Below, one piece after another: positions 735-54,596 of a stretch of 64,000 nucleotides of DNA (positions are counted from its first letter, which is position 1; every line of letters starts with the position of its first letter). This DNA comes from Patescibacteria group bacterium (GTDB lineage Bacteria; Patescibacteriota; Doudnabacteria; UBA920). Where the stretch lies: NCBI GenBank assembly GCA_023484515.1, contig JAMDAY010000010.1:5131-69130 (forward strand), given 5' to 3'. A program made the position numbers and the translations under genes. The notes beneath the pieces are model-generated. The model saw only the letters and a program-made list of their open reading frames with translations. It was not told where the DNA came from and did no database searches.

Positions 735-832
735 CTGCCATGGCCAAAGGCCCTCCGAAGCTTTAGCGTAGGAGGGGAGAATCTGGACAAGGTTAAGGAA
801 ATAAGGAAGTTGGCGAGGATAAAAAAATAGCA

Positions 833-866
833 GTGAAAAATTTGTACAATTGTACAAATTTTTCAC
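833..866. repeat. 34-nt perfect palindrome GTGAAAAATTTGTACAATTGTACAAATTTTTCAC, about 57 nt upstream of the 923 ORF
   Basis: Read directly: the reverse complement equals the sequence itself. A near-identical twin lies at 1605-1638. Confidence 0.6.
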
Positions 867-922
867 TTGTGATAGGCTTAGCTAAAGGGAAAATTTTAAA
901 ATAAATCAAATTTAGGAGGGTT

Positions 923-7287: not shown

Positions 7288-8103
7288 ATGCCAACGCCAA
7301 CAAACTTGGAAAAAACCAAACCCCGGACCGCAAAACCAAAAGCTAAAAATTTATTTCCCCATTTGCAAAATCATCTAAAAGATGACACGGTCTGCTTTGT
7401 TTCCAGCGGCCGGGAAATTTGCGTTCCCGCCGCGGAACTGGCCAAACTGTTCAGCGGCCGCACGCGCGAAGTTTCGCCGTGGACCATTTTCCGCATTATG
7501 GCGGAATTTATTAACGGGTTTGAATTTTTAAAGCGCTATAAAAAAGCCGTCAGCATTATGGGCAGCGCCCGTCCTAATTTGCAGAACGGGGTTTACCAGG
7601 AAGCCAGGGAACTGGCCTTTAAGCTGTCCAAGGCGGGTTTTGTGGTTATAACCGGCGGCGGGCCGGGAATAATGGAAGCGGCCAACAAAGGCGCATACGA
7701 AGCCGGCGGCCGCAGCGCGGGCATTAACATCAAGCTGCCGTCGGAACAGCGGACCAACGCTTACGTGAAGGAATCGGAAAGTTTTGACTTCTTTTTCACC
7801 AGGAAAGTAATGCTGGAGTTCGCTTCGCAGCTTTACGTGTTTTTCCCCGGCGGGTTCGGCACTTTGGATGAAATGTTTGAAATGGTCACCTTAATCCAGA
7901 CCAAAAAAATCGCGCCTGTTCCCATTATCTTAGTCAATAAAACTTTTTGGCAGCCGTTGTTGGACTGGATTAAGAATACAATTTACGGACAGAACAAGGC
8001 CATAGACGAAAAAGACATGGAAATTTACCACCTGGTGGACAGCGCCGAGGAAGCGTACGAGGTAATTAAGGAACTGACCAAGAAAAAACACCTATTTAAC
8101 TAA
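7288..8103 (+). CDS. LOG family protein (TIGR00730 Rossmann-fold nucleotide-binding; cytokinin riboside 5'-monophosphate phosphoribohydrolase-like) with a roughly 70-aa N-terminal extension
   Basis: SIMGSARPN...VITGGGPGIMEAANKGAYEAGG...GGFGTLDEMFE are LOG-family motifs. The start codon is uncertain. Confidence 0.8.
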   Translation: MPTPTNLEKTKPRTAKPKAKNLFPHLQNHLKDDTVCFVSSGREICVPAAELAKLFSGRTREVSPWTIFRIMAEFINGFEFLKRYKKAVSIMGSARPNLQNGVYQEARELAFKLSKAGFVVITGGGPGIMEAANKGAYEAGGRSAGINIKLPSEQRTNAYVKESESFDFFFTRKVMLEFASQLYVFFPGGFGTLDEMFEMVTLIQTKKIAPVPIILVNKTFWQPLLDWIKNTIYGQNKAIDEKDMEIYHLVDSAEEAYEVIKELTKKKHLFN

Positions 8104-8189
8104 TGACAAAAATTAAAAAAGTGACAAAAGTGACAAAATTTAATCCTTGGTAATTTTTATTATTTTTGTCATTTTTGATCATTTGATTT

Positions 8190-9243: not shown

Positions 9244-9259
9244 TATATAAGTGTATTTT

Positions 9260-9359
9260 AATGAGGGCCGTCCTCTGGGATTATTATTCTTAAGATCGTT
9301 TGGTAATAATCATAGTCTAATAATCTAAAATCTGTTTATCCCAGAGGACGGCTCTCATT
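9260..9359. repeat. MITE-like element copy 1 (diverged): 22-bp terminal inverted repeats AATGAGGGCCGTCCTCTGGGAT / ATCCCAGAGGACGGCTCTCATT around a roughly 56-bp AT-rich core
   Basis: The inverted repeat has one mismatch. The core (CTGGGA..TTCTTAAG..TTTGG..TAATCTAAA..TTATCCCAGAG) is related to the copies at 18086-18179 and 62422-62515. Confidence 0.5.
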
Positions 9360-9404
9360 ACCTTTGAAATTGTTTCCTTCTAATTTTACCATTAAATTTC
9401 CTTT

Positions 9405-15676: not shown

Positions 15677-17902
15677 ATGAAAACCAAGCCAGTTCTTTAT
15701 ATTTTCTTTATTTTAATCTGCTTTAGTTTGCTCACTCCGTTTGTCGTGGACAAAAATTACCTTTTTCCCTTTATTTTGCCCCGCGCCCTGTTTTTGCGCA
15801 TAGTCCTGGACATTGCCCTGCCCTTTTATTTATACCTCATATTAGCCAAAAAGGAATACCGCCCAAATTTAAAAAATCCGTTAAACCTTTCAGTTCTGGT
15901 TTTTTTGGGAGTTTACTTTATTACTTCCTTTACCGGCGTAGACGCGTTGCGCAGCGTGTGGGGCAACATTGAACGCATGGGCGGGGCGTGGTATATGATG
16001 CATCTGGTAATGCTGTATTTTTACGTGCTGCTTTTAGCCCAGGCCAGCGGCAGGCTGCTGCTGCGGTTTTTAAAAATTTTCCTGTGGGTGGCCAATGTTA
16101 CCGTATTTTACGGGTTGTGGGTATACTTGGGCCTGCCGGGTTTTTACGCGGACCCTTCGCTGCCTTCCCGCGTGTCTTCCAGTTTCGGCAATCCCATCTT
16201 TTTTGCCAGTTTCCTGGTGCTGCCGCTGTTTCTGTCCGTGTTTTTCGCCATCCAGGAAGAATCCAGGGCCTGGAAGGCAATATACGGGGTAATGGCGTTA
16301 TTGCAACTGTTCGGCATTTACCAGAGCGCCACGCGCGGCGCGTTTGTGGGCCTGGCGGCCGGCATATTTTTGGCGGCCGTGATGTTTTTGTTCAAGGCGG
16401 AATCGCGGCGCCTGCGCAATTGGGGAGTTGCCGCGGTCGGAGGCATAGTCCTGGTAGCCGGCGCGCTGTTCCTGTTCGGCGGCAAGCTGCCGTCCGGTTC
16501 GTTTTTATACCGCATTACCCATTTAAAGGACAGCAATTCCGAAGCCCGCCTGATCCAGTGGAAGACCGCCCTTCAAGGATACAAAGACAAGCCTGTTTTG
16601 GGCGTGGGCCCGGAAAATTACTATATCATCGCCAACAAATATTACAATCCCGAACTGAACAAGTACGATCCTTCCTGGTTTGACAAGCCGCATAACTATC
16701 TTTTGGAAATTTTAGTGACCACCGGCGCGGTAGGATTTGCCGCCTATCTGGCCATGCTGGCGTTTTTTGCCTGGAGCCTGTATAAGGCCTTTAAGGCCGG
16801 GTTGCTTTCGTGGCTGGAAACCTGCGTGCTTTTAGCCGGCATGCTGGCTTACCAGATCCAGAACTTGTTCGTGTTTGATACCATTTCCGCTTCCGTGGCC
16901 TTTTTCATTTATATGGGTTTTGGCGCGTATTTGTGGCATGAGTCGGAATTGGAAAAAAAACCGGCCCACAAAAAAATTATGTCCGGCCTTAGCCCCGCTT
17001 TCGTGAACGCGGCCGCAGGCGTGTCTGCGGTTGCCGTAATTTATGCCATTTACTTGACAAGTATTGTGCCGGGCCGGGTGGCAAAGAACATTAATTACGG
17101 CTACGCTTATTCCGGCATAGACCCGGTAAAGGCGGAACAATATTTTGAAGCCGCGCGCAACCAGCCGTTCGTGTTTGATCCGGGAGAATTGGGAGTGCGC
17201 TATGCGGACTTTGCCGCTAACGTGGCCCAAAACCCGCCGCAGGGGTTGTCCAAGGAAGAGATTGGCAAGATTACCGACCATGCCATAGCTTCTTTGGAGG
17301 ACGCAAATGCGCGCGTGCCCAATTATCCCATCTTTTGGTATAAATTGGCCCAGGCTTACAATACCAAAAGCCTGCTGGACAACGGGCCCGTGGACCCAAG
17401 GGCCGACCAGGCCGCGGCCAGGGCCGTGGAACTGGCACCCAAGCGGCCGGAAACCATAAGCTACCTTATCCAGGTAAAGGCCGCAGAGGGACAGACGGAT
17501 AAAGCAGTGTCATTGTCGGAGCAGTTGGCCCAATTGTACCCGTGGAATTCCGATTACGCCTGGCGCCTGGCAGTGGTGTACGATTTTGCCAAGCAGGACG
17601 AAAAAGCGGTTGCAACTGCGCAACAGGCGCTGGCCGCAGGCTACCAAATAAAGCAAACCAGTGACATCCAGTGGCTGGTAAAATATTATTCCGATAATAA
17701 AAATTATGCCGCTGCAATCGCATTATACCAGGCAGGGTTAAAAAATGACCCGACCAATGTCCAGCTTTTGAGCGGTTTGGCCCTGGCTTATGCCGACTCG
17801 GGCGACAAACAAAAGGCCATAGAGACCGCCAGGCAAATTGTTGTAATCCAGCCGGCGGCCAAGGACGACGTGGACAAATTCATCCAGGGCTTAAGCCAGT
17901 AA
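15677..17902 (+). CDS. Wzy_C (O-antigen ligase / PglL-WsaB-like oligosaccharyltransferase family) polytopic membrane protein with a C-terminal TPR domain
   Basis: Multiple TM helices. IYQSATRGAFVGLAAG and ARLIQWKTALQGYKDKPVLGVGPENY match Wzy_C signatures. The C-terminal roughly 250 aa carry TPR-like repeats. Confidence 0.8.
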   Translation: MKTKPVLYIFFILICFSLLTPFVVDKNYLFPFILPRALFLRIVLDIALPFYLYLILAKKEYRPNLKNPLNLSVLVFLGVYFITSFTGVDALRSVWGNIERMGGAWYMMHLVMLYFYVLLLAQASGRLLLRFLKIFLWVANVTVFYGLWVYLGLPGFYADPSLPSRVSSSFGNPIFFASFLVLPLFLSVFFAIQEESRAWKAIYGVMALLQLFGIYQSATRGAFVGLAAGIFLAAVMFLFKAESRRLRNWGVAAVGGIVLVAGALFLFGGKLPSGSFLYRITHLKDSNSEARLIQWKTALQGYKDKPVLGVGPENYYIIANKYYNPELNKYDPSWFDKPHNYLLEILVTTGAVGFAAYLAMLAFFAWSLYKAFKAGLLSWLETCVLLAGMLAYQIQNLFVFDTISASVAFFIYMGFGAYLWHESELEKKPAHKKIMSGLSPAFVNAAAGVSAVAVIYAIYLTSIVPGRVAKNINYGYAYSGIDPVKAEQYFEAARNQPFVFDPGELGVRYADFAANVAQNPPQGLSKEEIGKITDHAIASLEDANARVPNYPIFWYKLAQAYNTKSLLDNGPVDPRADQAAARAVELAPKRPETISYLIQVKAAEGQTDKAVSLSEQLAQLYPWNSDYAWRLAVVYDFAKQDEKAVATAQQALAAGYQIKQTSDIQWLVKYYSDNKNYAAAIALYQAGLKNDPTNVQLLSGLALAYADSGDKQKAIETARQIVVIQPAAKDDVDKFIQGLSQ

Positions 17903-18085: not shown

Positions 18086-18179
18086 GATGACGCACATCTG
18101 GGACAATCTTCCTTAAGTTTGGCTGATGATGATTATTATCCGGTAATCTAAAGACCGCTTATCCCAGATGTGCGTCATC
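18086..18179. repeat. MITE-like element copy 2: 18-bp terminal inverted repeats GATGACGCACATCTGGGA / TCCCAGATGTGCGTCATC flanking a 58-bp core
   Basis: Read directly. It is about 90% identical, in reverse complement, to 62422-62515. It lies between convergent gene ends. Confidence 0.7.
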
Positions 18180-18225
18180 TCCCAAAAAATAGAAAGATTG
18201 GGAATTTGCTAATTTTTTTATTTTT

Positions 18226-19347
18226 CTATTTTTGAATCTTTAAATTGTATTTTAAGGCCGCGCAATAAACGTTTTCCGTTTCCTTAAGCATTTGCTCTTC
18301 CGTAAACAGCCTGCTCTGCTGCGACGATTTTTGCGACAAAGTTTCCGCTGCATTACGGTCCCGTATTACAGTAACCATGGCCCGGGCCAGAGCCCGGGGG
18401 TCTTGGGGCGGCACTAATATTGCGGCGCTGCCCAGGGCTTCCCGGTTGCCGCCGACATTTGCCGCAATTATTGGCAGGCCGGCCTGCATGGCTTCCAGCA
18501 GGGCATAGGGAAAGCCTTCCTTGCGCGAGGGAAGCACAAAAATATCCAGTGCCTTTAAATAGAGCCGCGCGTCCGGCACTTGCCCCAGCAGCCGGAAAGA
18601 GCTTTCCAATTTTAAATTTAAGATTTTAGATTTAAGATTTTGATATTCCGGGCCGCTGCCGAAAATTACGAATACCACTTTGTCCAAAATTTCCCGCGGC
18701 AAAGTTGCCGCGGCTTCCACCAAAATGTCCTGCCCTTTGGTTTTGTAAAAGTTGGAAGTGTTGCCCAATGTTATCACGTGCTGCGGCAGCCCCAGCCGGC
18801 TGCGGGCTTCGTCCCTGGTTAAAAACGGCAGGGGAGGGATGCCGTTATGGACCGTGCGAATTTTTTCTGGAGCAATCAGTCTTTTTTGCAGCGCGGAATT
18901 TTTATCGGAGTCGGAAACCGCAATAATATAGCTGCGGAACAAAGAGGCGAATTTTTCTAGCCAAAGGTAGAAAAACTTGGAAACAGGGGAGAGCGGCTCG
19001 CTGTAGCGGAAGCCGTGGGCGGTAAAAATAATTTTGGCTTTAACGAACGGCTTAACCAGGCTGCCCAAAAACCCCGCTTTGGTGGAATTTAAATGCACTA
19101 TGTCGGGTTTTAGGGAATTGGCCAGCCTGGCAATTTCCAAAATTGCCAGCAAGTCATGCCAGGGGCTAATGTTGCGCTTTAAGTGCCTAAGCCCGTAAGC
19201 CGGAATGCCAGCCTGCCTGGCTTTAACAAACAGCCCTTGTTCTTCCGTTCCGGCGGCAATGGCGCCTTTAAAATGCCTGGCCAAAGCCAGCACGTAATTC
19301 TGCGCGCCGCCCCCGTCGGCTTGGGTGATAATATACAGTATCTTCAT
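18226..19347 (-). CDS. glycosyltransferase family 4 (GT1-fold)
   Basis: EGFPYALLEAMQAGLPIIAANVGG is the GT4 C-terminal motif. The ORF is 373 aa. Confidence 0.85.
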   Translation of the reverse strand: MKILYIITQADGGGAQNYVLALARHFKGAIAAGTEEQGLFVKARQAGIPAYGLRHLKRNISPWHDLLAILEIARLANSLKPDIVHLNSTKAGFLGSLVKPFVKAKIIFTAHGFRYSEPLSPVSKFFYLWLEKFASLFRSYIIAVSDSDKNSALQKRLIAPEKIRTVHNGIPPLPFLTRDEARSRLGLPQHVITLGNTSNFYKTKGQDILVEAAATLPREILDKVVFVIFGSGPEYQNLKSKILNLKLESSFRLLGQVPDARLYLKALDIFVLPSRKEGFPYALLEAMQAGLPIIAANVGGNREALGSAAILVPPQDPRALARAMVTVIRDRNAAETLSQKSSQQSRLFTEEQMLKETENVYCAALKYNLKIQK

Positions 19348-19565
19348 ATGCTAATATTTAAAAAATTGGCGAATTCCTTATTTGAACCCCGCTCGAAACC
19401 TTCCGCTATATTTAATAATATGGAAAATGCCGCTCTTTTTAATTGATCTAATAGCGAGTAATCTTTTTGCAGTTTTGGACTGCTTTCTATTAATTTATAT
19501 ATTCTATTTGTTAAAATTCTGGATTCTTGCCATACCGGCACGTCCTCGAATTGGTTATAGTGCAT
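19344..19565 (-). CDS. four-helix-bundle protein (23S rRNA intervening-sequence-type, TIGR02436-like), apparently C-terminally truncated (73 aa)
   Basis: FEDVPVWQESRILTNRIYKL...LLDQLKRAAFSILLNIAEGFERGSNKEFANFL matches helices 1-2 of the family. Its stop overlaps the GT4 start (ATGA). Confidence 0.5.
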   Translation of the reverse strand: MHYNQFEDVPVWQESRILTNRIYKLIESSPKLQKDYSLLDQLKRAAFSILLNIAEGFERGSNKEFANFLNISI

Positions 19566-19670
19566 AAGTGGATTTTAATTTTTCAATTTTTAATCTTTCA
19601 ATCTTTCAATAATATCATTGTATATTAAAACCAATTGCTTTGAAAGTGAAACTATGGTAAAGTTGAATAT

Positions 19671-20693
19671 ATGAAAAACACGCCCAAAGTCGCGCTAATC
19701 ACCGGCATTACCGGGCAGGACGGGTCATACTTGGCGGAATTGCTGCTGTCCAAGGGATACGAAGTCCACGGGATAATGCGGCGCGCCAGCACTTTTAATA
19801 CCGAGAGGATAGAGCAAATTTACCAGGATCCGCACGAGTCGCATAAGAGGCTGTTTTTGCACTACGGGGATTTGGCGGACGCCTCCAATTTAAACCATCT
19901 GCTTAAAAAAGTTAAGCCTGACGAAATTTACAATTTGGGCGCGCAGAGCCACGTGCGCGTCAGCTTTGACATTCCCGAATACACGGCCAATGTGACGGCT
20001 TTGGGCACGCTGCGCCTGCTGGACGCCATCCGCGAAAACGAAATTCAAACCAGGTTTTACCAGGCCGGGTCTTCGGAAATGTTCGGCGACGTTTTGGAAA
20101 CGCCGCAAAGCGAAAGCACGCCGTTTAACCCGGCTTCGCCCTATGGCGCGGCCAAGGTATTTGCCCACCACATTTGCAAGAATTACCGCGCTGCCTACAA
20201 TATGTTTATTTGCAACGGCATATTGTTCAATCACGAATCGGAGAGGCGCGGCAAGACTTTTGTGACGCGGAAAATTACCACCGGCATTGCCGAAATTTTA
20301 GCCGGCCGGCAGGACAAAATCTATTTGGGAAATTTGGACGCCAAGCGCGACTGGGGCTATGCGCCGGAATACGTGCAGGCTATGTGGCTGATGCTGCAGC
20401 AGGACAAGCCGGACGACTACGTGATTGCCACGGGCGAAACCCACAGCATTAGGGAATTTTTGGAAGAGGCTTTCGGCTTGCTGGGCATTAAGGATTGGGA
20501 AAAATACATTGGCATAGACCCCAAATACTACCGGCCGCAGGAAGTTAATTTGCTTTTGGGCAATGCCGGCAAAGCCAAAAAAATCTTGGGCTGGGAGCCG
20601 AAAGTGAAGTTTAAGGACCTGGTGCGCATAATGCTGGAAGCGGATGTTAAGGAAGCAGGGATGCAGTTGAAAGATTTAAAGATTGAAAATTAA
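19671..20693 (+). CDS. gmd: GDP-mannose 4,6-dehydratase
   Basis: [19 protein letters not shown]...GDLAD...[14 protein letters not shown]...[13 protein letters not shown] matches GMD throughout. Confidence 0.95.
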
Positions 20694-21692
<999 letters not shown>

Positions 21693-22504: not shown

Positions 22505-23587
22505 ATGCTTCGTATTTTATTCTGTGGTTTTAAATACGAATACGGCCGGCCGGAGCTGGGCTTGTCCGCTATTGAATACCGGGCTTTTTACAAGACGTTG
22601 GAAGCCATGGAAGGGGTGGAGGCGGAGTTTTTTGCAATTGACGAGCTTATGCGCCAGGCGGGGCGGGACGAAATGAACCGGCAATTAATCCGGAAGGTTC
22701 AAGAGGAAAAACCGGACCTGCTGTTTTGTTTCTTGTTTACCGAGGAGCTGAAAAAGGAAACCATAGCTTACATTACGCGCAAGACTGGGACTAAAACTTT
22801 TAACTGGTTTGCGGACGACCACTGGCGCCTGCCGGTCTTTTCCCGCTTTTGGGCGCCGCTGTTTACCATGGCCGGGACAACGGATTCGCAAGCTTTGGCT
22901 AAATATGAATCTTACGGCATCACTAACGTCATAAAGACCCAGTGGGCGGCGAATACGGCGTTATGCAAGCCGGTAGATGATTTAAAGATTGAAAGATTGA
23001 AAGATTCAAAGATTGAGGATTGCGAAATTGCCTTTGTGGGAAAAAAATACGGGAACAGGGGAAGTTATATCGCGTATCTTAAAAGCCATAACCTTCCGGC
23101 AGAGGGGTATGGCAAAGGTTGGGAAACGGGCGTGGTAAGTTTCCGGGAGATGCTGGAAATATTTTCCCAAAGTAAGATAAATTTGAATTTTACGGAAAGC
23201 TACTTAAGTTGGCCAAAAGAGATTGTAAAATTGTTTATAAAGGAAGAACTGGGCAAATACAGTCTTAATTTCCAATTTCCAATTTCCAATCTCCAATCCT
23301 TGGCTGGGAAAAGACGCAGGCAAATTAAGGCGCGGATTTTTGAAGTGCCGGCTTGCGGCGGGTTCCTGCTGACCGGTGATGCGGACAATTTGCGCGACTA
23401 CTATGAAGACGGCAAGGAAATTGTCCTTTTTAAGGACAAAAATGATTTAGTGGAAAAATGCCGTTATTATCTTGAGCACGAAGGCGAGCGCCAAGCCATT
23501 GCCCTTGCGGGTTATCAGCGGACTATAAAGGACCACACTTACGAGCAGAGGTTTAGAGAAATATTTAAGGTAATGGAACTAGTGTAA
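22505..23587 (+). CDS. CgeB-family glycosyltransferase (DUF3880 plus GT1-like C-terminal domain)
   Basis: The C-terminal block IFEVPACGGFLLTGD...YYLEHEGERQAIALAGYQRTIKDHTYEQR is typical of CgeB-like proteins. A paralog lies at 43181-44338. Confidence 0.65.
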   Translation: MLRILFCGFKYEYGRPELGLSAIEYRAFYKTLEAMEGVEAEFFAIDELMRQAGRDEMNRQLIRKVQEEKPDLLFCFLFTEELKKETIAYITRKTGTKTFNWFADDHWRLPVFSRFWAPLFTMAGTTDSQALAKYESYGITNVIKTQWAANTALCKPVDDLKIERLKDSKIEDCEIAFVGKKYGNRGSYIAYLKSHNLPAEGYGKGWETGVVSFREMLEIFSQSKINLNFTESYLSWPKEIVKLFIKEELGKYSLNFQFPISNLQSLAGKRRRQIKARIFEVPACGGFLLTGDADNLRDYYEDGKEIVLFKDKNDLVEKCRYYLEHEGERQAIALAGYQRTIKDHTYEQRFREIFKVMELV

Positions 23588-23767
23588 AACTAAAGTAAAT
23601 ATTTAAGTAAATATTTGCTTTTGATTGGCGTAAAGGAAGCAGGCCGCCTGATTCTTATTAGCTGATGTTTTAAGGTTTTAGCCGTTAATTTATCCACAAT
23701 TGACCTATCTTGACACCCAATGACCTGTTATGATACTGTAAAAGCAGTTAAAATAAACTTTCTTTCC

Positions 23768-24013
23768 ATGGCAGAAATCAAGCCAAATGAAGTATATACT
23801 ACCGAAGAAACGCAGGAGTTGCTGAAAGTCAGCAATAGCACTATTAAACGCATGTTGAAAAACGGTTTGCTCCGGGCCAACAAAGTCGGCAAGCAGTATC
23901 GCATAATGGGGCATGAAATTTTAAGGCTGGTCAGCCCGGAAGTGGAGCAAAAAGCCGTGGAAAAGTACCAGCAAATTAAAACCAAAGTCAGGGAAGGGAC
24001 AAAAAACTGGTAA
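23768..24013 (+). CDS. excisionase-family helix-turn-helix DNA-binding protein
   Basis: YTTEETQELLKVSNSTIKRMLKNGLLRANKVGKQYRI matches the excisionase/MerR-type HTH (TIGR01764-like). The ORF track starts earlier, at 23720. Confidence 0.55.
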   Translation: MAEIKPNEVYTTEETQELLKVSNSTIKRMLKNGLLRANKVGKQYRIMGHEILRLVSPEVEQKAVEKYQQIKTKVREGTKNW

Positions 24014-24107
24014 CCCTACTAAAGTACCAAAATGTACCAAAATACGAAATCTGCTACAAATTTGGGTTAATTTAGTACTTTAGTATTATTTAGTATTTTA
24101 GTAGGGG
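24014..24107. repeat. solo inverted-repeat pair of the TACTAAAG motif family (termini CCCTACTAAA ... TTTAGTAGGGG), with about 26 nt between the arms
   Basis: Read directly. It has the same termini as the repeats flanking the GxxExxY gene at 24929-25390. Confidence 0.55.
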
Positions 24108-24108
24108 T

Positions 24109-24927
24109 ATGGAAATTATAATTCGACCAAAAAGCAAATGGTGGCATTTGGACCTGGGAGAGCTTTGGACTTTCCGCGATTTATTTTATTTTTTAACCTG
24201 GCGGGACGTTAAGGTCAAATACAAGCAGACCATTGTGGGGGTGCTGTGGGCCGTGTTCCAGCCGTTTGTGACCATGGTGGTGTTTTCGGTTTTTTTCGGC
24301 AGGCTGGCTAAAATGCCTTCGGAGGGGGTGCCTTACCCGATTTTTGTTTACACCGGCCTTATTTTTTGGACTTTGTTTTCCGCGGGACTGACCGACACCA
24401 GCGGCTCATTCGTTTCTAATTCCCAGATTGTGACCAAAGTATACTTTCCCCGCGTTATTTTGCCCACGGCCACGGTGCTGACAAACATGGTGGACTTTGC
24501 CATTGCGGCAATCATTCTGGTGGGGTTGATGTTTTATTACCACTACACCCCCACGCTTTTGGGGATTGTGCTAATTCCGGTCCTAATTTTAATGACCATT
24601 TTAAGCACGCTGGGCGTGGGTTTGCTGTTCGGGTCTTTGAACGTAAAATACCGCGACGTCAGGTTTATTTTGCCGTTTTTTATCCAGTTGCTGATTTTCA
24701 TCACGCCGGTCATTTACCCCGTTACCATTGTTTCGGAAAAATACCGCTGGATTTTGGGCCTTAACCCCATGTCCGGGGTAATAGACGTTGCGCGGGCAGG
24801 GCTTTTGGGAATTAAGTCCATAGACTGGGGGCTGCTGCTTGTTTCCATAATAAGCATGACAGTGTATTGCGTTGTCGGATACCTTTACTTCAAGGTGGTG
24901 GAGCGGTATTTCGCAGACGTTATTTAA
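24109..24927 (+). CDS. wzm: ABC-2 type polysaccharide exporter permease (Wzm/TagG-like)
   Basis: WRDVKVKYKQTIVGVLWAVFQPF and six predicted TM segments, the ABC-2 permease signature. Confidence 0.85.
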   Translation: MEIIIRPKSKWWHLDLGELWTFRDLFYFLTWRDVKVKYKQTIVGVLWAVFQPFVTMVVFSVFFGRLAKMPSEGVPYPIFVYTGLIFWTLFSAGLTDTSGSFVSNSQIVTKVYFPRVILPTATVLTNMVDFAIAAIILVGLMFYYHYTPTLLGIVLIPVLILMTILSTLGVGLLFGSLNVKYRDVRFILPFFIQLLIFITPVIYPVTIVSEKYRWILGLNPMSGVIDVARAGLLGIKSIDWGLLLVSIISMTVYCVVGYLYFKVVERYFADVI

Positions 24928-24928
24928 T

Positions 24929-25390
24929 CCCTACTAAATTACTAAAGTGTACCAAAATACTAAAACTAAAAACATTCGGGAAGATTTGGTTGAAAAGGAC
25001 CTTTGTTATAAAATAGTTGGCGTATTAATGGAAGTATATAAACAACTTGGAAGCGGCCATCGCGAACAATATTACCAGCGAGCAATTGCAGCAGAACTTA
25101 CGCGTCAAAAGTACTCATTTAAACAGTTTGTTAGAACAACCTTAAATTATAAAGATGCCCCAATAGGCGTTTATATCTTAGATTTCCTAATAGAAGGCCG
25201 TGTGGTTCTGGAGATAAAGAAGGATAACTATTTTTCCAGACAACACATTGACCAAGTTAATGGATATTTAAAGACTTTAGATCTTCGGCTGGGTATTTTA
25301 GCAAATTTCACCAAAGAAGGGGTAAAATTTAAAAGAATCGTCAATCTGTATTAATTTAGTACTTTAGTATTTTTTAGTAATTTAGTAAGG
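24929..25390. mobile_element. putative inverted-repeat-flanked cassette carrying a GxxExxY gene
   Basis: Left repeat CCCTACTAAATTACTAAAGTGTACCAAAATACTAAAA (24929-), right repeat ...TTAGTACTTTAGTATTTTTTAGTAATTTAGTAAGG (-25390). Termini are CCCTACTAAA / TTTAGTAAGG. The cassette splits the wzm-wzt pair. Confidence 0.4.
24947..25354 (+). CDS. GxxExxY protein (PD-(D/E)XK-superfamily, TIGR04256-like)
   Basis: KIVGVLMEVYKQLGSGHREQYYQRAIAAEL...DFLIEGRVVLEIK matches the family. The start is uncertain; the first annotated codon lies inside the flanking repeat. Confidence 0.8.
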   Translation: MYQNTKTKNIREDLVEKDLCYKIVGVLMEVYKQLGSGHREQYYQRAIAAELTRQKYSFKQFVRTTLNYKDAPIGVYILDFLIEGRVVLEIKKDNYFSRQHIDQVNGYLKTLDLRLGILANFTKEGVKFKRIVNLY

Positions 25391-25393
25391 AAG

Positions 25394-26665
25394 ATGGCTA
25401 TTATAGAGGTCACCAATTTAGGGAAAAAATACAATATTGGCGAACGCCAGAATTATTTGGCGTTGCGGGATACTTTGACGTATATTATCAAGTCGCCTTT
25501 AAAATGGTTTGGCGGAAAAGTTAAAAGTTTGCAGAGCCGCCCTGACAATGAATTTTGGGCGCTTCGGGACGTAAATTTTACCGTAAAAAAAGGCGAGGTT
25601 TTGGGCATTATTGGCCGCAACGGAGCGGGCAAGTCCACATTGCTGAAAATCCTTTCGCAAATTACCCCGCCCACAACGGGGGAAATTCGCCTGGGCGGCC
25701 GGGTGGGTAGCCTTTTGGAAGTGGGAACGGGTTTCCACCCGGAACTTACCGGCCGCGAGAATATTTTTCTTAACGGCGCAATTTTGGGAATGAGGAAAAA
25801 GGAAATAGAAAAGAAGTTTGACGAGATTGTGGAATTTTCCGGGGTGGAAAAATTCATTGACACGCCGGTCAAGCGCTATTCTTCCGGAATGTATGTGCGC
25901 CTGGCGTTTTCCGTTGCCGCGCACTTGGAACCGGACATTTTGATAATTGACGAAGTCCTGGCCGTGGGCGACTCGGAATTCCAAAAGAAATGCCTGGGCA
26001 AAATGGAAGAAGTTACCAAAAAAGAAGGCCGCACCGTGCTGTTCGTAAGCCATAACCTGGCCGCGGTAAAAAAATTGTGCGACCGCTGCGTTGTACTGAA
26101 TAATGGCAGCAAGGTTTTTGAAGGGGGAACGGAAAAAGCGCTTTTGGCATACGATAATTTGCAAAGCAGCAGGGAACTGAAAATGAATAAAGGCGAATAT
26201 AATAATAACCGCAGGGGCTCGGGGACTTTAAGTTTTACTGAAATTGAAATGTTTGACACAAACGACAAAAAGAGGAATATGTTCAACATAGGCGAAACCG
26301 TAAGGTTTAAAATGTCTTATGCGGTCCTTAACGAAATGGAAGGGCTTTATGTGCTTATTTCCCTGTATAAGGACAGGCTTAACGGTGTGTTAACAACCGT
26401 AAAACATGAGTTGCGGAACAATGTTATAAAAAAAGGCGAAAATGGTTCTGCCATAGTGGATGTTGAACTGTCCCATATTTGCCCGGGCGAATACAGTCTG
26501 CATTTTTGGCTAGGCGATAAAATGGCGCTGCATCAAGGCACCCCGCTTAATTACGACGTAGTGGACAACGTAGTGGGACCCTTGGTAATTAAGGCATCCA
26601 GCGAAGAAGAAAAGGAGATGGCCGGCTATTTTACTTTGCCATCAAATATGAATATACTTAAATAA
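25394..26665 (+). CDS. wzt: ABC polysaccharide exporter ATP-binding protein (Wzt/TagH-like) with a C-terminal glycan-binding domain
   Basis: Walker A GRNGAGKST, signature YSSGMYVRLAF, Walker B ILIIDEVLAVGD. The extra roughly 170-aa C-terminal domain is markedly lower in GC than the NBD. Confidence 0.9.
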   Translation: MAIIEVTNLGKKYNIGERQNYLALRDTLTYIIKSPLKWFGGKVKSLQSRPDNEFWALRDVNFTVKKGEVLGIIGRNGAGKSTLLKILSQITPPTTGEIRLGGRVGSLLEVGTGFHPELTGRENIFLNGAILGMRKKEIEKKFDEIVEFSGVEKFIDTPVKRYSSGMYVRLAFSVAAHLEPDILIIDEVLAVGDSEFQKKCLGKMEEVTKKEGRTVLFVSHNLAAVKKLCDRCVVLNNGSKVFEGGTEKALLAYDNLQSSRELKMNKGEYNNNRRGSGTLSFTEIEMFDTNDKKRNMFNIGETVRFKMSYAVLNEMEGLYVLISLYKDRLNGVLTTVKHELRNNVIKKGENGSAIVDVELSHICPGEYSLHFWLGDKMALHQGTPLNYDVVDNVVGPLVIKASSEEEKEMAGYFTLPSNMNILK

Positions 26666-52175: not shown

Positions 52176-52338
52176 GAGGTGGTCTAAAAACTCCATTTGG
52201 GCTGCAATTGCAAAATTTCGGCCATTTGGGCCAAAAAATTTCTCCGCTTAGCCTACGGCTAAACATCAAAATTTATTTGCCCCAACTGCCTCGAAATTTT
52301 GCAATTTCGCCTACAAAGCGAGTTTTTAGACCACCTCC
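52176..52338. repeat. 163-nt imperfect palindrome with perfect 18-bp outer arms GAGGTGGTCTAAAAACTC / GAGTTTTTAGACCACCTC and nested inner inverted repeats (GCAATTGCAAAATTTCG...)
   Basis: Read directly; it occupies the whole rfbC-GT2 intergenic space. Confidence 0.65.
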
Positions 52339-52358: not shown

Positions 52359-53099
52359 ATGCCTTTAGTTTCCGTAAATATCCTGACTAAAAATCGCGCT
52401 GGGCTGCTAAGGCGCGCGTTGCTGTCCGTGGCAGCGCAAAGTTTTAAGGATTTTGAGGTAGTGGTCGTCAACGACGGGTCGTCCGATGAAACTCAAGAGG
52501 TAATTGAAAGATTGAAAATTGAAAATTTAAAGATTATAACGCATCAGGAATCAAAAGGGATTACAGCCGGCAGGCAGGAAGCTTTGCAGGCGAGCGCGGG
52601 GAAATATATAGCTGTTCTGGATGATGACGACGAATGGATAGATGCGGATAAATTGAAAAAACAGGTGGGATATTTAAATGAGCACCGCGATTGCGTACTA
52701 TTAGGCGGTGGAATCCAAATTTCCAATATCCAATTTCCAATATCCAAAACAAGGCCGGAGACGGATGGGGAAATAAGGCGGGCGATGCTGTTAAAAAATC
52801 CGTTTTTTACTTCCACGGTAATGTTCCGGCGGGAAGCGGCCTTAAAGGCGGGCGGGTTTGTAAAAGACAGCGACGATCTTGCCGAAGACTACGACTTATG
52901 GCTAAGGCTGGGCCTGCTTGGGGGAATGCATAATTTCCAGGAGCCATTTGTGCGCTATAGCCGGTCAAGCTATAATAAAGGCAGGTTTCGCGCATTTTTA
53001 GCCAAGCAATTGCGGTTAATTTCGCGGCATAAGCGGAATTATCCCAAATATTTTTTGGCAAAGCTAATTTTAAAAGCAAGGCTGGTTTTGGGAGCGTAG
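52359..53099 (+). CDS. glycosyltransferase family 2
   Basis: VSVNILTKNRAGLLRRALLSVAAQSF...VVVNDGSSDET...VLDDDDEW. Confidence 0.8.
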   Translation: MPLVSVNILTKNRAGLLRRALLSVAAQSFKDFEVVVVNDGSSDETQEVIERLKIENLKIITHQESKGITAGRQEALQASAGKYIAVLDDDDEWIDADKLKKQVGYLNEHRDCVLLGGGIQISNIQFPISKTRPETDGEIRRAMLLKNPFFTSTVMFRREAALKAGGFVKDSDDLAEDYDLWLRLGLLGGMHNFQEPFVRYSRSSYNKGRFRAFLAKQLRLISRHKRNYPKYFLAKLILKARLVLGA

Positions 53100-53172
53100 G
53101 CGTAGGGCAGCTCATGACTGGGACGGATTGAAGATTAAAAATTGAAGATTGAAGATTTAAAAAAGCAATATT

Positions 53173-54477
53173 ATGCTTAACAACAAATTAGTAAATTTTT
53201 GGCTGCTTACGGTCCCGGACCTGGCATTGTTTTATGCGGGGTTATGGATGGCCATTCTGCTGCGCTACGGCGGGGGGTTAAAAGGCGTGGACGCGACCGC
53301 GCATTTTAAGGCCTTTACCGTGCTGTTCGCTTTTTGGCTGGTGGTATTCTTTATCCACGGGCTTTTGGACATCCGTTCCCTAAAGCGCTATACCGGCATA
53401 GTCTTCGGCTTGCTTTCCGCAACCGTAACCAACCTGGTCATTGCCATTGTTTATTTTTATTTCCAGCCGGACCTGATTTTAACGCCCAGGCGCTTTTTAC
53501 TTTTGGATTTAACCATAACTTTCGTCTTAATCCTGGCCTGGCATCTGCTGTTAAAATTCAACCTGAAGCGCCTGGCCACGGAAGACGTATATTTGTTTTC
53601 CTTTAACAACGAATTGGCAGAATTGGAACGGGAAATTAAAAAGCATGGCTACCTGGGTTTTAAGGTGCTGGGGCATTTATGCGAACAGGATTTAAGGCAG
53701 CCGGCGCTGGCAATAAACAGCGCCATTATATTGCCGGACAATTTGCAGGCCAAGCCGGAAGTGCTTGCCAAATTTTACGAATGGCGGAAGTCCGGGGTGG
53801 ATTTTTTTAACCATCGCGAATTTTACGAAAACCTGCTGCGGCGCGTGTATATTTCCGACTTAAGCGAGCTGTGGTTCTTGGAAAACATCAGTTATAAGGA
53901 AAAGCGCTTTTACAACCTGCTCAAGCGGGCCATAGATTTAATTTTCGGCGTTTTAGGGCTGGCTGCGTTTTTGTTAAGCTGGCCGTTTTGCTCCCTGCTG
54001 ATTAAGCTGACTTCCCCGGGCCCGGTTTTGTTCATCCAGGAGCGGGTAGGCAGGGGGGGTAAAATTTTCAAGGTTTACAAATACCGCACCATGAGCGGCG
54101 GCCCGACCAATACCTGGACTTCGGTCAACGACCCGCGCATCACCAAAGTGGGCAAATTTTTGCGCAAGAGCCGCATAGACGAATGGCCGCAGTTCTTAAA
54201 CCTGCTGGCCGGCAACTTAAGCCTGGTCGGCCCGCGGCCGGAACAACCGCACATTGTGGAAGAATTAAAAAGGCAAATCCCGTTTTACGACGAGCGGCAT
54301 TTGGTCAAACCCGGCCTGACCGGCTGGGCGCAGCTAAACGTTTATGCCGGTTCCCTGGAAGAGACCAAAGCCAAACTGCAATACGACCTGTATTACATTA
54401 AGCACCGCAGCCTGGCTTTTGACCTGGAGATTATTTTGAAGACTTTGTATTACATCTTTACCTGGCAGGGGAGGTAA
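53173..54477 (+). CDS. undecaprenyl-phosphate sugar phosphotransferase (WbaP/WsaP-like initiating enzyme)
   Basis: N-terminal TM region. C-terminal KRAIDLIFG...SPGPVLFIQERVGRGGKIFKVYKYRTM...PQFLNLLAGNLSLVGPRP is the bacterial sugar-transferase domain. Confidence 0.9.
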   Translation: MLNNKLVNFWLLTVPDLALFYAGLWMAILLRYGGGLKGVDATAHFKAFTVLFAFWLVVFFIHGLLDIRSLKRYTGIVFGLLSATVTNLVIAIVYFYFQPDLILTPRRFLLLDLTITFVLILAWHLLLKFNLKRLATEDVYLFSFNNELAELEREIKKHGYLGFKVLGHLCEQDLRQPALAINSAIILPDNLQAKPEVLAKFYEWRKSGVDFFNHREFYENLLRRVYISDLSELWFLENISYKEKRFYNLLKRAIDLIFGVLGLAAFLLSWPFCSLLIKLTSPGPVLFIQERVGRGGKIFKVYKYRTMSGGPTNTWTSVNDPRITKVGKFLRKSRIDEWPQFLNLLAGNLSLVGPRPEQPHIVEELKRQIPFYDERHLVKPGLTGWAQLNVYAGSLEETKAKLQYDLYYIKHRSLAFDLEIILKTLYYIFTWQGR

Positions 54478-54596
54478 AATTTAAAGATTTAAAAATAGAA
54501 AAATAGAAAGATTGAAAGATTAAACGGCTCAAATAATTTTGCCAGTTGGCGGATGGCGGGTTGGGCTGTTTTTTATTTTACTCAATAAAAATTTTA

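What the first reader, a model, noticed from the sequence alone, without database searches (positions are those of the whole stretch)
23768..25390. GxxExxY (PD-(D/E)XK) gene inserted between wzm and wzt as an inverted-repeat-flanked cassette, with a solo repeat site next to an excisionase-like HTH gene
wzm and wzt are normally adjacent. Here a 135-aa GxxExxY protein sits between them, flanked by about 40-bp inverted repeats of a TACTAAAG-type motif with termini CCCTACTAAA / TTTAGTAAGG. A third and fourth copy of the same repeat form an 'empty' inverted-repeat pair at 24014-24107, immediately downstream of an excisionase-family HTH gene. Together these look like a small site-specific mobile cassette with an empty/solo site nearby. 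GxxExxY and four-helix-bundle genes are classically found inside rRNA intervening sequences, so a homing-like element is conceivable. A truncated four-helix-bundle gene is also present at 19344-19565.
Basis: seen in the sequence. Interest (0 to 1): 0.65.

Follow-up and report, generated by a model that had tools for sequence, protein, structure and literature searches.

The report
Palindromic nuclease-gene cassette splitting wzm–wzt
Two copies of a palindromic insertion element found in several other Patescibacteria contigs, one carrying a small nuclease gene and one without a gene, sit exactly in the stop/start junctions of a sugar-export operon, built like the unexplained intervening sequences of bacterial ribosomal RNA genes.

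Summary
Four 36-nt arms, each CCC plus four TAC-N-AAA words at spacing 8/10/8, form a 93-bp ORF-less hairpin (24014-24106) and a 462-bp cassette (24929-25390) enclosing a GxxExxY / PD-(D/E)XK gene.

Three relatives have the HTH_17, wzm and wzt genes 1-4 nt apart, and a fourth has wzm and wzt overlapping. Both elements are therefore insertions. The HTH gene is a conserved operon member, not an excisionase.

The same arms flank GxxExxY homologues (52-86% identity) in unrelated operons of other Patescibacteria. They also occur there as ORF-less hairpins at gene junctions. All 7 GxxExxY genes examined have inverted word-repeat flanks, against 2 of 160 control genes. More distant paralogues carry other words (TACGAA, GCGAA).

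Synonymous sites are saturated, yet the arms stay 31-32/36 identical. The ORFs are 10-18 GC points below their hosts.

Four-helix-bundle genes, including the truncated one here, sit in parallel GATTGAAA-word cassettes.

Best reading: an ancient mobile element family built like rRNA intervening sequences but living in mRNA operons, with ORF-less derivatives. Whether the Cas4/RecB-like nuclease mobilises it is inferred, not shown. I found no description of this in the literature searched.

The parts
23710..23737 (+). Promoter-like site (TTGACA-16-GATACT) upstream of the HTH_17 gene. Context only: it probably drives the HTH-wzm-(GxxExxY)-wzt transcript.
   Evidence: 10 of 12 consensus positions. 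No promoter-like or terminator-like site falls in the arms.
23768..24013 (+). HTH_17 gene (81 aa). It is a conserved first gene of the operon, not part of the element.
   Evidence: Orthologues lie 1-3 nt upstream of wzm in L027, L028 and L029, where no arm was found.
24014..24049 (+). Left arm of the ORF-less element: CCC plus 4 TAC-N-AAA words. It starts directly after the HTH stop codon TAA.
24050..24070 (+). Loop of the ORF-less element. Its 3' part, AATTTGGGTTAA, resembles the 3' end of the GxxExxY ORF (AATCTGTATTAA), which suggests an internal-deletion derivative.
   Evidence: repeat D1, 48 nt, 88% identity, extends 12 nt inside the arm
24071..24106 (-). Right arm of the ORF-less element. 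It ends in GGG, 2 nt before the wzm ATG.
24109..24927 (+). wzm (ABC-2 permease). Host gene lying between the two insertions.
24929..24964 (+). Left arm of the ORF-bearing cassette. It starts 1 nt after the wzm stop codon (TAA T|CCC).
24947..25354 (+). GxxExxY / PDDEXK_3 ORF (135 aa from a GTG inside the arm). The conserved coding part is 24968-25351. The canonical ATG is replaced by ACT at 24965-24967. The stop codon TAA abuts the right arm.
25355..25390 (-). Right arm of the cassette (terminus CCTTAC..., one mismatch). Its outer end, AAGGAAG, lies just before the wzt ATG and looks like a Shine-Dalgarno site.
25394..26665 (+). wzt (ABC ATPase with Wzt_C domain). Host gene downstream of the cassette.
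19344..19565 (-). Truncated four-helix-bundle (23S_rRNA_IVP) gene. It is the remnant of a sister cassette of the GATTGAAA-word family.
19573..19610 (-). GATTGAAA-word arm directly upstream of the four-helix-bundle remnant. Full-length homologues in L030 and L032 have this arm plus an inverted partner after the stop codon.
20667..20745 (+). ORF-less GATTGAAA-word hairpin at the gmd|fcl junction. Its left arm encodes the last residues of Gmd (LKDLKIEN).

Best explanation
**Shown.**
- The window holds two copies of a palindromic element also found at other loci on contigs from other Patescibacteria.
- Each arm is 36 nt: a CCC clamp plus four TAC-N-AAA words that start at positions 0, 8, 18 and 26.
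- One copy (24014-24106) has only a 21-nt loop. The other (24929-25390) carries in its loop a gene for a minimal Cas4/RecB-type PD-(D/E)XK nuclease (GxxExxY).
- Both copies lie exactly in the 1-4-nt stop/start junctions of a conserved, tightly packed HTH_17-wzm-wzt operon.
- Protein and arms are inherited together. Both are under purifying selection, and their composition is foreign to the host.

**Inferred.**
- The element is co-transcribed with the operon. It has no promoter of its own, and all ORF-bearing copies point the same way as the downstream gene.
- It folds into a long interrupted stem that brings the upstream stop codon and the downstream start codon together. In some copies the outer end also supplies a Shine-Dalgarno-like sequence. 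That would make an insertion between coupled genes tolerable. This is the same architecture as ORF-bearing intervening sequences of 23S rRNA.
- The nuclease recognises the iterated words of its own arms and cuts at or near the CCC/GGG termini, or at unoccupied junctions, to copy the element.
- ORF-less hairpins are internal-deletion derivatives moved in trans.

**My confidence by step.** Inserted mobile element family, 0.9. Functional coupling of protein and arms, 0.75. The nuclease is the mobilising enzyme acting on DNA, about 0.4.
For: - **Sites without the element.** L027, L028 and L029 have HTH|wzm separated by 1-3 nt and wzm|wzt by 3-4 nt. In L032 wzm and wzt overlap.
- **Same arms elsewhere.** 12 real elements were found among 15 metagenome contigs, mostly ORF-less hairpins at junctions such as rpmI|rplT and purN|purF.
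- **GxxExxY homologues in unrelated contexts are flanked by the same architecture.**
  - After pilB (86% identity).
  - ComM-like | NTP-transferase (70%).
  - After smpB (71%).
  - pilT | pilC (59%, TACGAAT words).
  - Upstream of Bac_transf (62%, TACGAA words).
  - MraY-like | amidohydrolase (52%).
  - A 32%-identical paralogue with GCGAA words.

- **Inverted-repeat flank score.** 7 of 7 GxxExxY genes score at least 16. For 160 other genes the mean is 8.6 (sd 2.7), and only 2 reach 16; both lie between two hairpins.
- **Selection.** pS is 0.8-0.96 (saturated) and pN is 0.08-0.34, yet arms are 31-32/36 identical between those same elements. Word and CCC positions carry about 2 bits of information, spacers 0.2-1.0 bits.
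- **Composition.** ORF GC is 0.27-0.39 against 0.37-0.51 for the host in all 7 loci. In the window, ORF GC3 is 0.31 against 0.52-0.62 for the neighbours.
- **Stem.** Word and clamp positions are complementary in 271/280 cases. Variable positions match in only 20/80, fewer than chance (P = 0.001). RNA folding closes both elements with the terminal stem.
- **Protein.** AlphaFold2 pLDDT is 94. D79, E89, K91, Q103 and Y107 are invariant and E40 nearly so. The best structural neighbours are Cas4 SSO0001, lambda exonuclease, MGME1 and AdnAB. There is a weak Cas4b profile match.
- **Termini.** T lies left of CCC in 12/17 elements and A right of GGG in 14/17. A stop codon lies 0-1 nt from a terminus in 8 of the 17 elements.
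Against: - No target-site duplication is visible.
- No two near-identical copies in one genome were found, so recent movement is not shown. Synonymous saturation means the sampled copies are old.
- One homologue (P0064) sits at the same locus in all 10 samples looked at.
- The sister family carries a four-helix-bundle protein that is not a nuclease. The ORF may therefore not be the mobilising enzyme in either family.
- The window's own copy has lost its canonical ATG.
- The consensus stem has 0 compensatory pairs among 22. Structure is not independently supported, and DNA-level versus RNA-level action cannot be told apart.
- In three plasmid records from other phyla the flanking repeats are weaker, and in two of them they are direct rather than inverted.
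Confidence: 0.55

Rival explanations
1. RNA-level module only. The palindromes are intervening-sequence-type processing or stability elements of polycistronic mRNA, cut or bound by host factors such as RNase III. GxxExxY and four-helix-bundle genes are passengers with another job (defence, addiction, RNA metabolism). The element spreads by recombination or gene transfer, not through its own protein.
For: - The architecture is identical to ORF-bearing rRNA intervening sequences, which RNase III excises (PMC4990558).
- Two unrelated proteins occupy the same kind of cassette.
- All ORF-bearing copies are co-oriented with the host operon and lack their own promoter.
- The start codon lies 0-9 nt after the left arm with no Shine-Dalgarno sequence.
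- Folding closes the terminal stem.
Against: - The stem shows no compensatory changes (0 of 22 pairs).
- The exact word sequence is conserved while synonymous sites are saturated.
- Spacers are mismatched more often than chance, so helices are only 7 bp long. That is a poor RNase III substrate (my own knowledge).
- The nuclease's catalytic residues are invariant and of the DNA-end-processing Cas4/RecB type.
- Mismatch types give no consistent G-U pattern on either strand.
Confidence: 0.2
2. A domesticated REPIN/RAYT-like system. The hairpins serve the host (mRNA stability, termination, nucleoid structure). They are maintained in trans by a resident GxxExxY gene that is itself flanked by the repeat, and neither is a parasite.
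For: - ORF-less hairpins outnumber ORF-bearing copies.
- The gene is flanked by inverted copies of the same repeat, and different protein lineages have different repeats. This is the pattern known for RAYT genes and their REPs (PMC3733652 abstract, plus my own knowledge).
- P0064 sits at a fixed locus across 10 samples.
- There is long-term purifying selection.
Against: - GxxExxY copies sit at different loci in different genomes, inside operons where relatives have no such gene.
- ORF composition is foreign to the host in all 7 loci.
- The protein is PD-(D/E)XK, not a HUH/Y1 enzyme.
- Two paralogues with different arms lie 1 kb apart in L023.
Confidence: 0.12
3. One reading: a site-specific recombination cassette in which the HTH_17 protein acts as excisionase and 24014-24106 is an empty attachment site.
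For: - The HTH gene matches the 'excise' domain family (TIGR01764, E 6e-10).
- It abuts the ORF-less repeat pair.
Against: - 81-aa HTH_17 orthologues are present in four relatives (directly upstream of wzm in three). No arm was found in the fetched stretch of any of them.
- Those three relatives have only 1-3 nt where the 93-bp pair sits, so the pair is an insertion and not a target site.
- No recombinase was identified near the element among the window proteins I scanned, but the window was not scanned systematically for one.
Confidence: 0.03
4. Generic low-complexity intergenic repeats produced by replication slippage, with no relation to the GxxExxY gene.
For: - The window is full of other 7-8-nt word arrays (GATTGAAA, TGACAAAAG, AACAAGT and others), some solo and some inside coding regions.
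- The number of words per arm varies in the GATTGAAA family.
Against: - The TACTAAA arm has a fixed 36-nt architecture with conserved termini in many genomes.
- It occurs only at these four places in the window.
- It is absent from the orthologous junctions in relatives.
- It is tied to GxxExxY genes in 7 of 7 cases.
Confidence: 0.02

Closest known systems
Intervening sequences (IVS) of bacterial 23S rRNA genes, such as those of Coxiella burnetii and Leptospira
   Same: - Terminal inverted repeats form a long stem around a loop.
- The loop may be short or may hold a gene of about 120-130 codons from the four-helix-bundle (S23p) or GxxExxY family.
- There is a poor or absent Shine-Dalgarno sequence.
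- Distribution is sporadic.
- The AT-rich composition differs from the host.
- Origin and mobility are unknown (PMC4990558).
   Different: - Here the elements lie in protein-coding operons at stop/start junctions, not in rRNA helices 9, 25 or 45. None of the 18 loci scanned held rRNA.
- The arms are built from iterated 7-nt words with deliberately mismatched spacers, rather than a nearly perfect 28-bp stem.
- RNase III excision is untested here.
REPIN / RAYT systems (REP doublets and their Y1 transposase-like gene)
   Same: - Many ORF-less hairpin doublets sit in intergenic DNA.
- A single protein gene is flanked by inverted copies of the same repeat.
- Each protein lineage has its own repeat sequence.
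- A GTAG tetranucleotide lies at the termini (TAGTAGGG).
   Different: - The protein is a PD-(D/E)XK nuclease, not a HUH/Y1 enzyme.
- GTAG lies at the 3' outer end of each strand and is paired within the stem. In REPs it is a 5' unpaired head (my own knowledge).
- The gene-bearing copies are at different loci in different genomes.
Non-autonomous palindromic insertion elements: MITEs, Neisseria Correia elements, Rickettsia palindromic elements
   Same: - Short elements flanked by terminal inverted repeats, co-transcribed with neighbouring genes.
- Presence/absence polymorphism between relatives.
- Some word arrays here also lie in frame inside genes, as Rickettsia palindromic elements do.
   Different: - No target-site duplication.
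- The candidate autonomous partner encodes no known transposase.
- The arms consist of four phased words.
PD-(D/E)XK homing endonucleases such as I-Ssp6803I (recalled from memory, not tested here)
   Same: A small PD-(D/E)XK nuclease encoded inside a selfish insertion that is harmless to host gene expression.
   Different: - There is no self-splicing intron or intein.
- Copies occupy many different loci rather than one cognate site.
- The conserved inverted word arrays have no role in classical homing.
Integron gene cassettes with attC hairpins
   Same: An ORF followed by an imperfect palindrome whose unpaired positions are conserved as unpaired.
   Different: - The arm sequence itself is conserved, whereas attC sites conserve structure only.
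- Arms lie on both sides of the ORF.
- No integrase was identified among the window proteins scanned; the window was not searched for one.
- Insertions are scattered through housekeeping operons.

Membership tests
GxxExxY protein family (TIGR04256 / Pfam PF13366 PDDEXK_3) | Profile score above the curated cut-off | tested here: met
   TIGR04256: 101.8 bits against a cut-off of 35. PF13366: 98.3 bits against 22.
GxxExxY protein family (TIGR04256 / Pfam PF13366 PDDEXK_3) | GxxExxY motif and a PD-(D/E)XK catalytic core | tested here: met
   G37-H-R-E40-Q-Y-Y43 is present. D79, E89 and K91 are invariant, as are Q103 and Y107, in 62 homologues. The fold matches Cas4 and lambda exonuclease.
23S rRNA intervening sequence | Located inside a 23S rRNA helix | tested here: not met
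   The elements lie between protein genes. No rRNA was found in the window or in the 18 loci scanned.
23S rRNA intervening sequence | Terminal inverted repeats forming a stem around an optional S23p-type or GxxExxY-type ORF | tested here: met
23S rRNA intervening sequence | Excised from the transcript by RNase III | not testable with these tools
   Needs transcript end-mapping or an in-vitro RNase III assay.
TIR transposon / MITE pair | Terminal inverted repeats with conserved tips | tested here: met
   (T)CCCTAC...GTAGGG(A) is conserved in 17 elements.
TIR transposon / MITE pair | Target-site duplication | tested here: not met
   No duplication is seen at the two window junctions when compared with the same junctions in relatives that lack the element, nor in 15 other elements.
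TIR transposon / MITE pair | Presence/absence polymorphism at orthologous sites | tested here: met
   Both elements are absent from the HTH|wzm and wzm|wzt junctions of L027 and L028/L029 and from the wzm|wzt junction of L032.
TIR transposon / MITE pair | The autonomous copy encodes a recognised transposase | tested here: inconclusive
   The only ORF is a PD-(D/E)XK nuclease, with no match to transposase families. TnsA of Tn7 is a PD-(D/E)XK precedent (my own knowledge).
REPIN / RAYT | The associated gene is a HUH/Y1 (RAYT) enzyme | tested here: not met
   The gene is PF13366, a PD-(D/E)XK nuclease.
   The HTH_17 orthologue is present in four relatives in whose fetched stretches no arm was found. 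No recombinase was identified among the window proteins I scanned; the window was not searched for one.

The most novel reading that the evidence does not exclude
These cassettes are the autonomous, free-living form of the elements known for 35 years as rRNA intervening sequences. They would be a previously unrecognised class of bacterial mobile element whose ends are phased arrays of 7-nt words. The element's own small protein reads those words: a Cas4/RecB-like GxxExxY nuclease in one family and a pentameric four-helix-bundle protein in the sister family. The elements survive by landing exactly between a stop codon and the next start codon, or in expendable rRNA helices. That would give a function to two very large families of unknown proteins and explain the origin and spread of intervening sequences.
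Probability: 0.3. Interest if true: 0.85.

Novelty: new variant of a known kind. Interest (0 to 1): 0.7.

Why it matters
**Large protein families with no known function.** GxxExxY proteins form a large family: 20,556 cluster representatives at 50% identity with E ≤ 0.001, and 6,534 with E ≤ 1e-10. In the papers I found, no function is assigned to them (Steczkiewicz 2012 lists PF13366 as 'Unknown') or to the four-helix-bundle IVS proteins.

**An open question about intervening sequences.** How rRNA intervening sequences arise and move has been unresolved since 1990 (PMC4990558).

**What this locus offers.** It provides a clean, testable system:
- Insertion sites are defined to the nucleotide, with the same junctions lacking the element in relatives.
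- ORF-bearing and ORF-less copies lie side by side.
- There is a conserved 36-nt candidate recognition site.
- The candidate enzyme is only 130 residues long.

**If the nuclease reads the word arrays,** it would be a new kind of element/enzyme pair. It could also be a compact sequence-programmed DNA-binding nuclease.

**Annotation.** Patescibacteria operons are interrupted at stop/start junctions by elements that gene callers report as ordinary genes or ignore.

Tried and rejected
- **Arm pattern in 185,579 reference genomes.** Only one hit, an unrelated cyanobacterial tandem repeat. Copy number per complete genome could therefore not be measured.
- **Viral contigs.** No GxxExxY relatives and no arms, so there is no sign of a phage vector.
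- **Known RNA families.** Only sub-threshold hits to plant microRNA hairpins.
- **Solved structures by sequence.** None.
- **G-U versus A-C mismatch asymmetry,** used to decide which strand, if any, folds as RNA. The result is mixed (17 A-C, 15 G-T) and uninformative.
- **Compensatory base changes.** None; the stems are invariant.
- **Target-site duplications.** None.
- **Identical protein at several loci, as a sign of recent jumps.** P0064 is at one locus in all 10 places shown.
- **Promoter or terminator in the arms.** None.
- **Three of 15 metagenome pattern hits** (L014, L021) and the genome hit (L007) turned out to be chance or unrelated.
- **HTH as excisionase** and **'generic intergenic motif'.** Both rejected on comparative data.
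- **Defence-system and phage-family libraries.** Only weak Cas4b similarity.
Full report
**1. What is in the sequence**

Four copies of one 36-nt unit occur in the window, and nowhere else in its 64 kb. They lie at 24014-24049(+), 24071-24106(-), 24929-24964(+) and 25355-25390(-). A pattern describing the unit hits 4 times with up to 2 mismatches, and 0 times in 100 shuffles.

Each unit is CCC followed by four TAC-N-AAA words whose starts are 8, 10 and 8 nt apart.
- The first two units form a hairpin with a 21-nt loop.
- The last two enclose an ORF, 24947-25354.

- HTH_17 (23768-24013).
- An ABC-2 permease, Wzm (24109-24927).
- A GxxExxY / PDDEXK_3 protein (PF13366 E 5e-28; TIGR04256 E 2.9e-29).
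- Wzt, with ABC_tran plus Wzt_C domains (25394-26665).
- A four-helix-bundle gene truncated at 73 of about 126 codons (19344-19565, minus strand).

The source is a Patescibacteria (CPR) metagenome-assembled genome.

**2. Both repeat pairs are insertions**

The closest available Wzm relatives are 72-76% identical. Their operon is HTH_17 (81 aa), wzm, wzt with almost no intergenic DNA:
- L027: TGGTAG-TAT-ATG and TTTAG-TGAT-ATG.
- L028/L029: TGGTAG-T-ATG and TATAA-TTT-ATG.
- L032 (a 1.2-Mb contig): wzm and wzt overlap.

In the window:
- The 93-bp hairpin lies exactly between the HTH stop codon TAA and 'GT ATG' of wzm.
- The 462-bp cassette lies between 'TAA T' of wzm and 'AAG ATG' of wzt.

No target-site duplication is visible.

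No arm was found in the fetched stretches of these relatives, yet they keep the HTH_17 gene. That gene is therefore a resident of the operon, not an excisionase of the element. The 24014-24106 pair is a second, ORF-less copy, not an empty site.

**3. The same element exists elsewhere**

An exact-pattern scan of metagenome contigs returned 15 loci. Twelve are real elements and three are chance hits.
- Most are ORF-less hairpins with loops of 4-45 nt.
- They sit at junctions of unrelated genes, such as rpmI|rplT, purN|purF and next to guaB.
- Across 29 arms, the CCC and TAC-AAA positions carry about 2 bits of information each. The single-nt and 3-nt spacers and the fourth base of each word are free (0.2-1.1 bits).
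- The base outside the element is T on the left in 12 of 17 elements and A on the right in 14 of 17.
- In 8 of the 17 elements a stop codon of an ORF of at least 60 codons ends 0-1 nt from a terminus. A start codon often follows within 2-13 nt.

**4. The gene and the arms travel together**

GxxExxY homologues sit in quite different operons, and each is flanked by inverted word arrays of the same design.

| Locus | Identity to window protein | Context | Words |
|---|---|---|---|
| L003 | 86% | after pilB | TACTAAA |
| L006 | 71% | after smpB, with whole hairpins on both sides | TACTAAA |
| L023 | 70% | ComM-like \| NTP-transferase | TACTAAA |
| L024 | 62% | upstream of Bac_transf | TACGAA, spacing 8/10/8 |
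| L025 | 59% | pilT \| pilC | TACGAAT, CCCTAC termini |
| L034 | 52% | MraY-like \| amidohydrolase | TACTAAA, spacing 7/10/9 |
| L023, second gene | 32% | 1 kb downstream of the first | GCGAA |

I scored the best inverted match between the flanks of every gene in all loci held at that point:
- The 7 GxxExxY genes score 16-29.
- The 160 other genes have mean 8.6, sd 2.7 and 95th percentile 12.
- The only two other genes that reach 16 lie between two hairpins.

All ORF-bearing copies point the same way as the downstream host gene.

**5. Age and selection**

- Between GxxExxY genes the synonymous difference is saturated (pS 0.75-0.98). The non-synonymous difference is 0.08-0.34. The protein is therefore under purifying selection and the sampled copies are old.
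- The non-coding arms of those same elements are still 31-32/36 identical. The word sequence itself is constrained.
- The ORFs are 10-18 GC points below their host loci in all seven cases. In the window, ORF GC3 is 0.31 against 0.52-0.62 for HTH, wzm, wzt and the neighbouring glycosyltransferase.

**6. The stem**

- RNA folding closes both window elements with the terminal stem (z = -2.3 and -2.8).
- Across ten elements the word and clamp positions of the two arms are complementary in 271 of 280 cases. The variable positions match in only 20 of 80, fewer than when arms are re-paired at random (P = 0.001).
- The folded form is therefore a CCC/GGG clamp plus four 7-bp helices, separated by 1x1 and 3x3 internal loops that are kept unpaired. 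The two arms of one element are of two different types.
- RNAalifold finds 22 pairs and no compensatory change. The helices are conserved as sequence, which says nothing for or against structure.
- Mismatch types (17 A-C, 15 G-T) do not single out a strand.
- There is no promoter-like or terminator-like site in the arms. A good promoter-like site lies upstream of the HTH gene.

**7. The protein**

- The AlphaFold2 model is confident (pLDDT 94).
- D79, E89, K91, Q103 and Y107 are invariant, and G35, E40, Y43 and Q44 nearly so, in 62 homologues. This is E...D...ExK...QxxxY, the motif set of RecB/Cas4/lambda-exonuclease-type nucleases (established knowledge).
- The best structural neighbours are Cas4 SSO0001, lambda exonuclease, MGME1 and AdnAB. 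Hjc and tRNA-splicing endonucleases follow further down, and all have modest TM-scores of about 0.5.
- The defence library gives only a weak Cas4b match.
- No solved structure matches by sequence.
- In homologues the ATG follows the left arm by 0-9 nt without a Shine-Dalgarno sequence, and the stop codon abuts or overlaps the right arm.
- In the window the ATG has become ACT (24965-24967). The frame remains open from a GTG inside the arm.

**8. The sister family, and the 'generic motif' objection**

The window contains many other 7-8-nt word arrays. The commonest family is GATTGAAA.
- Full-length homologues of the truncated four-helix-bundle gene (82-86% identical, in the same gmd | 4HB | GT4 synteny) are flanked by inverted GATTGAAA arrays.
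- ORF-less GATTGAAA hairpins fill other junctions of the same cluster.
- In the window, 19573-19610 is the surviving arm and 20667-20745 is an ORF-less hairpin.

So there are at least two parallel systems: TACTAAA with GxxExxY, and GATTGAAA with the four-helix bundle. These are the two protein families recorded inside rRNA intervening sequences.

The TACTAAA unit is not a generic intergenic motif. TACTAAAG occurs at the four arms plus one chance site.

**9. Mechanism**

*Shown:* insertion at stop/start junctions, co-inheritance of gene and arms, constraint on both, and foreign composition.

*Inferred:*
- The element is transcribed with the operon.
- The stem brings the stop and start codons together. 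The outer end sometimes offers a Shine-Dalgarno-like sequence: AAGGAAG before wzt, TAGGGA before pilC in L025. It does not always do so.
- The nuclease reads the words and cuts at the termini or at unoccupied junctions.
- ORF-less copies are internal deletions. The loop of the window hairpin keeps 8 of 12 nt of the ORF's last codons.

*Against a simple 'nuclease = transposase' reading:*
- There is no target duplication.
- The sister family's protein is not a nuclease.
- There is no evidence of recent jumps.
- P0064 sits at a fixed locus in 10 samples.

*Rivals:* an RNA-only module of the intervening-sequence type, and a REPIN/RAYT-like domesticated system.

**10. Comparison with what is known**

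- **Closest in form:** ORF-bearing rRNA intervening sequences, which have a 28-bp terminal stem, are excised by RNase III and have a poor Shine-Dalgarno sequence. Their origin is 'unclear', with a 1993 proposal that the ORF serves mobility (PMC4990558).
- **Closest in population structure:** REPIN/RAYT systems and MITE/autonomous-element pairs.
- **Membership fails for each on a defining feature:** the elements are not in rRNA, the protein is not a Y1 enzyme, and there is no target duplication or known transposase.
- **Literature:** full-text searches for GxxExxY, PF13366, PF05635 and Patescibacteria palindromic elements found no description of these cassettes.
- **Family size:** 20,556 representatives at 50% identity with E ≤ 0.001.

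**11. Verdict**

- The mobile-cassette reading is supported. The excisionase and empty-site details are refuted.
- This is a new variant of known kinds of element.
- The enzymology is undecided. The system is well defined for experiment.

Noticed in passing
window 22979-23016 and 23267-23297; 52502-52531 and 52713-52747: Two unrelated glycosyltransferase genes (GT1-like 22505-23587 and GT2 52359-53099) each contain, in frame, a GATTGAAA array followed about 200-250 nt later by a TTCCAAT/ATCCAAT array. They encode peptides like KIERLKDSKIED and NFQFPISNLQS. Against the L032 orthologue, the first array corresponds to a linker that is 7 aa longer. The second has the same length as the orthologue's sequence.
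   Followed up: partly
window 20667-20699: The last eight residues of Gmd (LKDLKIEN) and its stop codon are encoded by the left arm of a GATTGAAA hairpin. The element has replaced the native 3' end of the gene.
   Followed up: partly
window 53126-53157, 54479-54521, 63923-63955, 18189-18245: Further GATTGAAA/GATTTAA word arrays, mostly solo and in direct orientation around the Bac_transf gene (53173-54477). They are not arranged as hairpins.
   Followed up: no
window 8102-8173: An inverted pair of TGACAAAAG-type words with an 18-nt loop fills the junction between a LOG/lysine-decarboxylase-like gene and a transaldolase gene. This is a third word family with the same hairpin habit.
   Followed up: no
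window 832-867 and 1604-1639: Two 94%-matching copies of a 36-nt perfect-type palindrome (AGTGAAAAATTTGTACAATTGTACAAATTTTTCACT) flank a PaaX-like regulator gene (923-1597). They look like operator sites rather than word-array elements.
   Followed up: partly
window 9259-9360 and 18086-18179: Two long hairpins (38-nt and 45-nt arms) share the inner motif TAATCTAAA...TTATCCCAGA. One lies next to tRNA-Pro, the other after gene 15677-17902. They match no Rfam family at gathering threshold.
   Followed up: no
window 52176-52337: A 24-nt inverted repeat, 92% complementary, encloses 114 nt in a 199-nt intergenic gap upstream of the GT2 gene (GAGGTGGTCTAAAAACTC...GAGTTTTTAGACCACCTC). Unexplained.
   Followed up: no
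window 24965-24967: The canonical start codon of the GxxExxY gene is ACT here, where homologues have ATG (MKNIREDL...). The copy may be poorly translated, or may start at GTG 24947 inside the arm.
   Followed up: yes
L024 985-1101 (within the RNase P RNA gene at 615-1133): The bacterial RNase P RNA gene of this Patescibacteria contig is 519 nt against a 367-nt model. It carries an unaligned insert of about 117 nt near its 3' end that contains inverted CAAATC/GATTTG-type words. This may be an intervening-sequence-like insertion in a structural RNA.
   Followed up: no
L010 3255-3375: A hairpin made of TTCCAAA/TTTGGAA words fills the infC|rpmI junction, 200 nt from a TACTAAA hairpin at rpmI|rplT. 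Several word families therefore coexist in one operon.
   Followed up: no
L045 (Fusobacteria plasmid CP102406.1) and L046 (Treponema plasmid NZ_AP025289.1): GxxExxY genes from two other phyla are flanked by repeats that share the motif AATCCGTGT. In Treponema the repeats are inverted (ACACGGATTCG / CGAATCCGTGT). In the Fusobacteria plasmid they are direct repeats of about 55 bp. A Persicobacter copy (L044) has TAATCC-word arrays on both sides in direct orientation.
   Followed up: partly
one search hit list: Many family representatives are about 260-270 aa long with two matched stretches. These are tandem double GxxExxY proteins or fused calls of adjacent cassettes.
   Followed up: no
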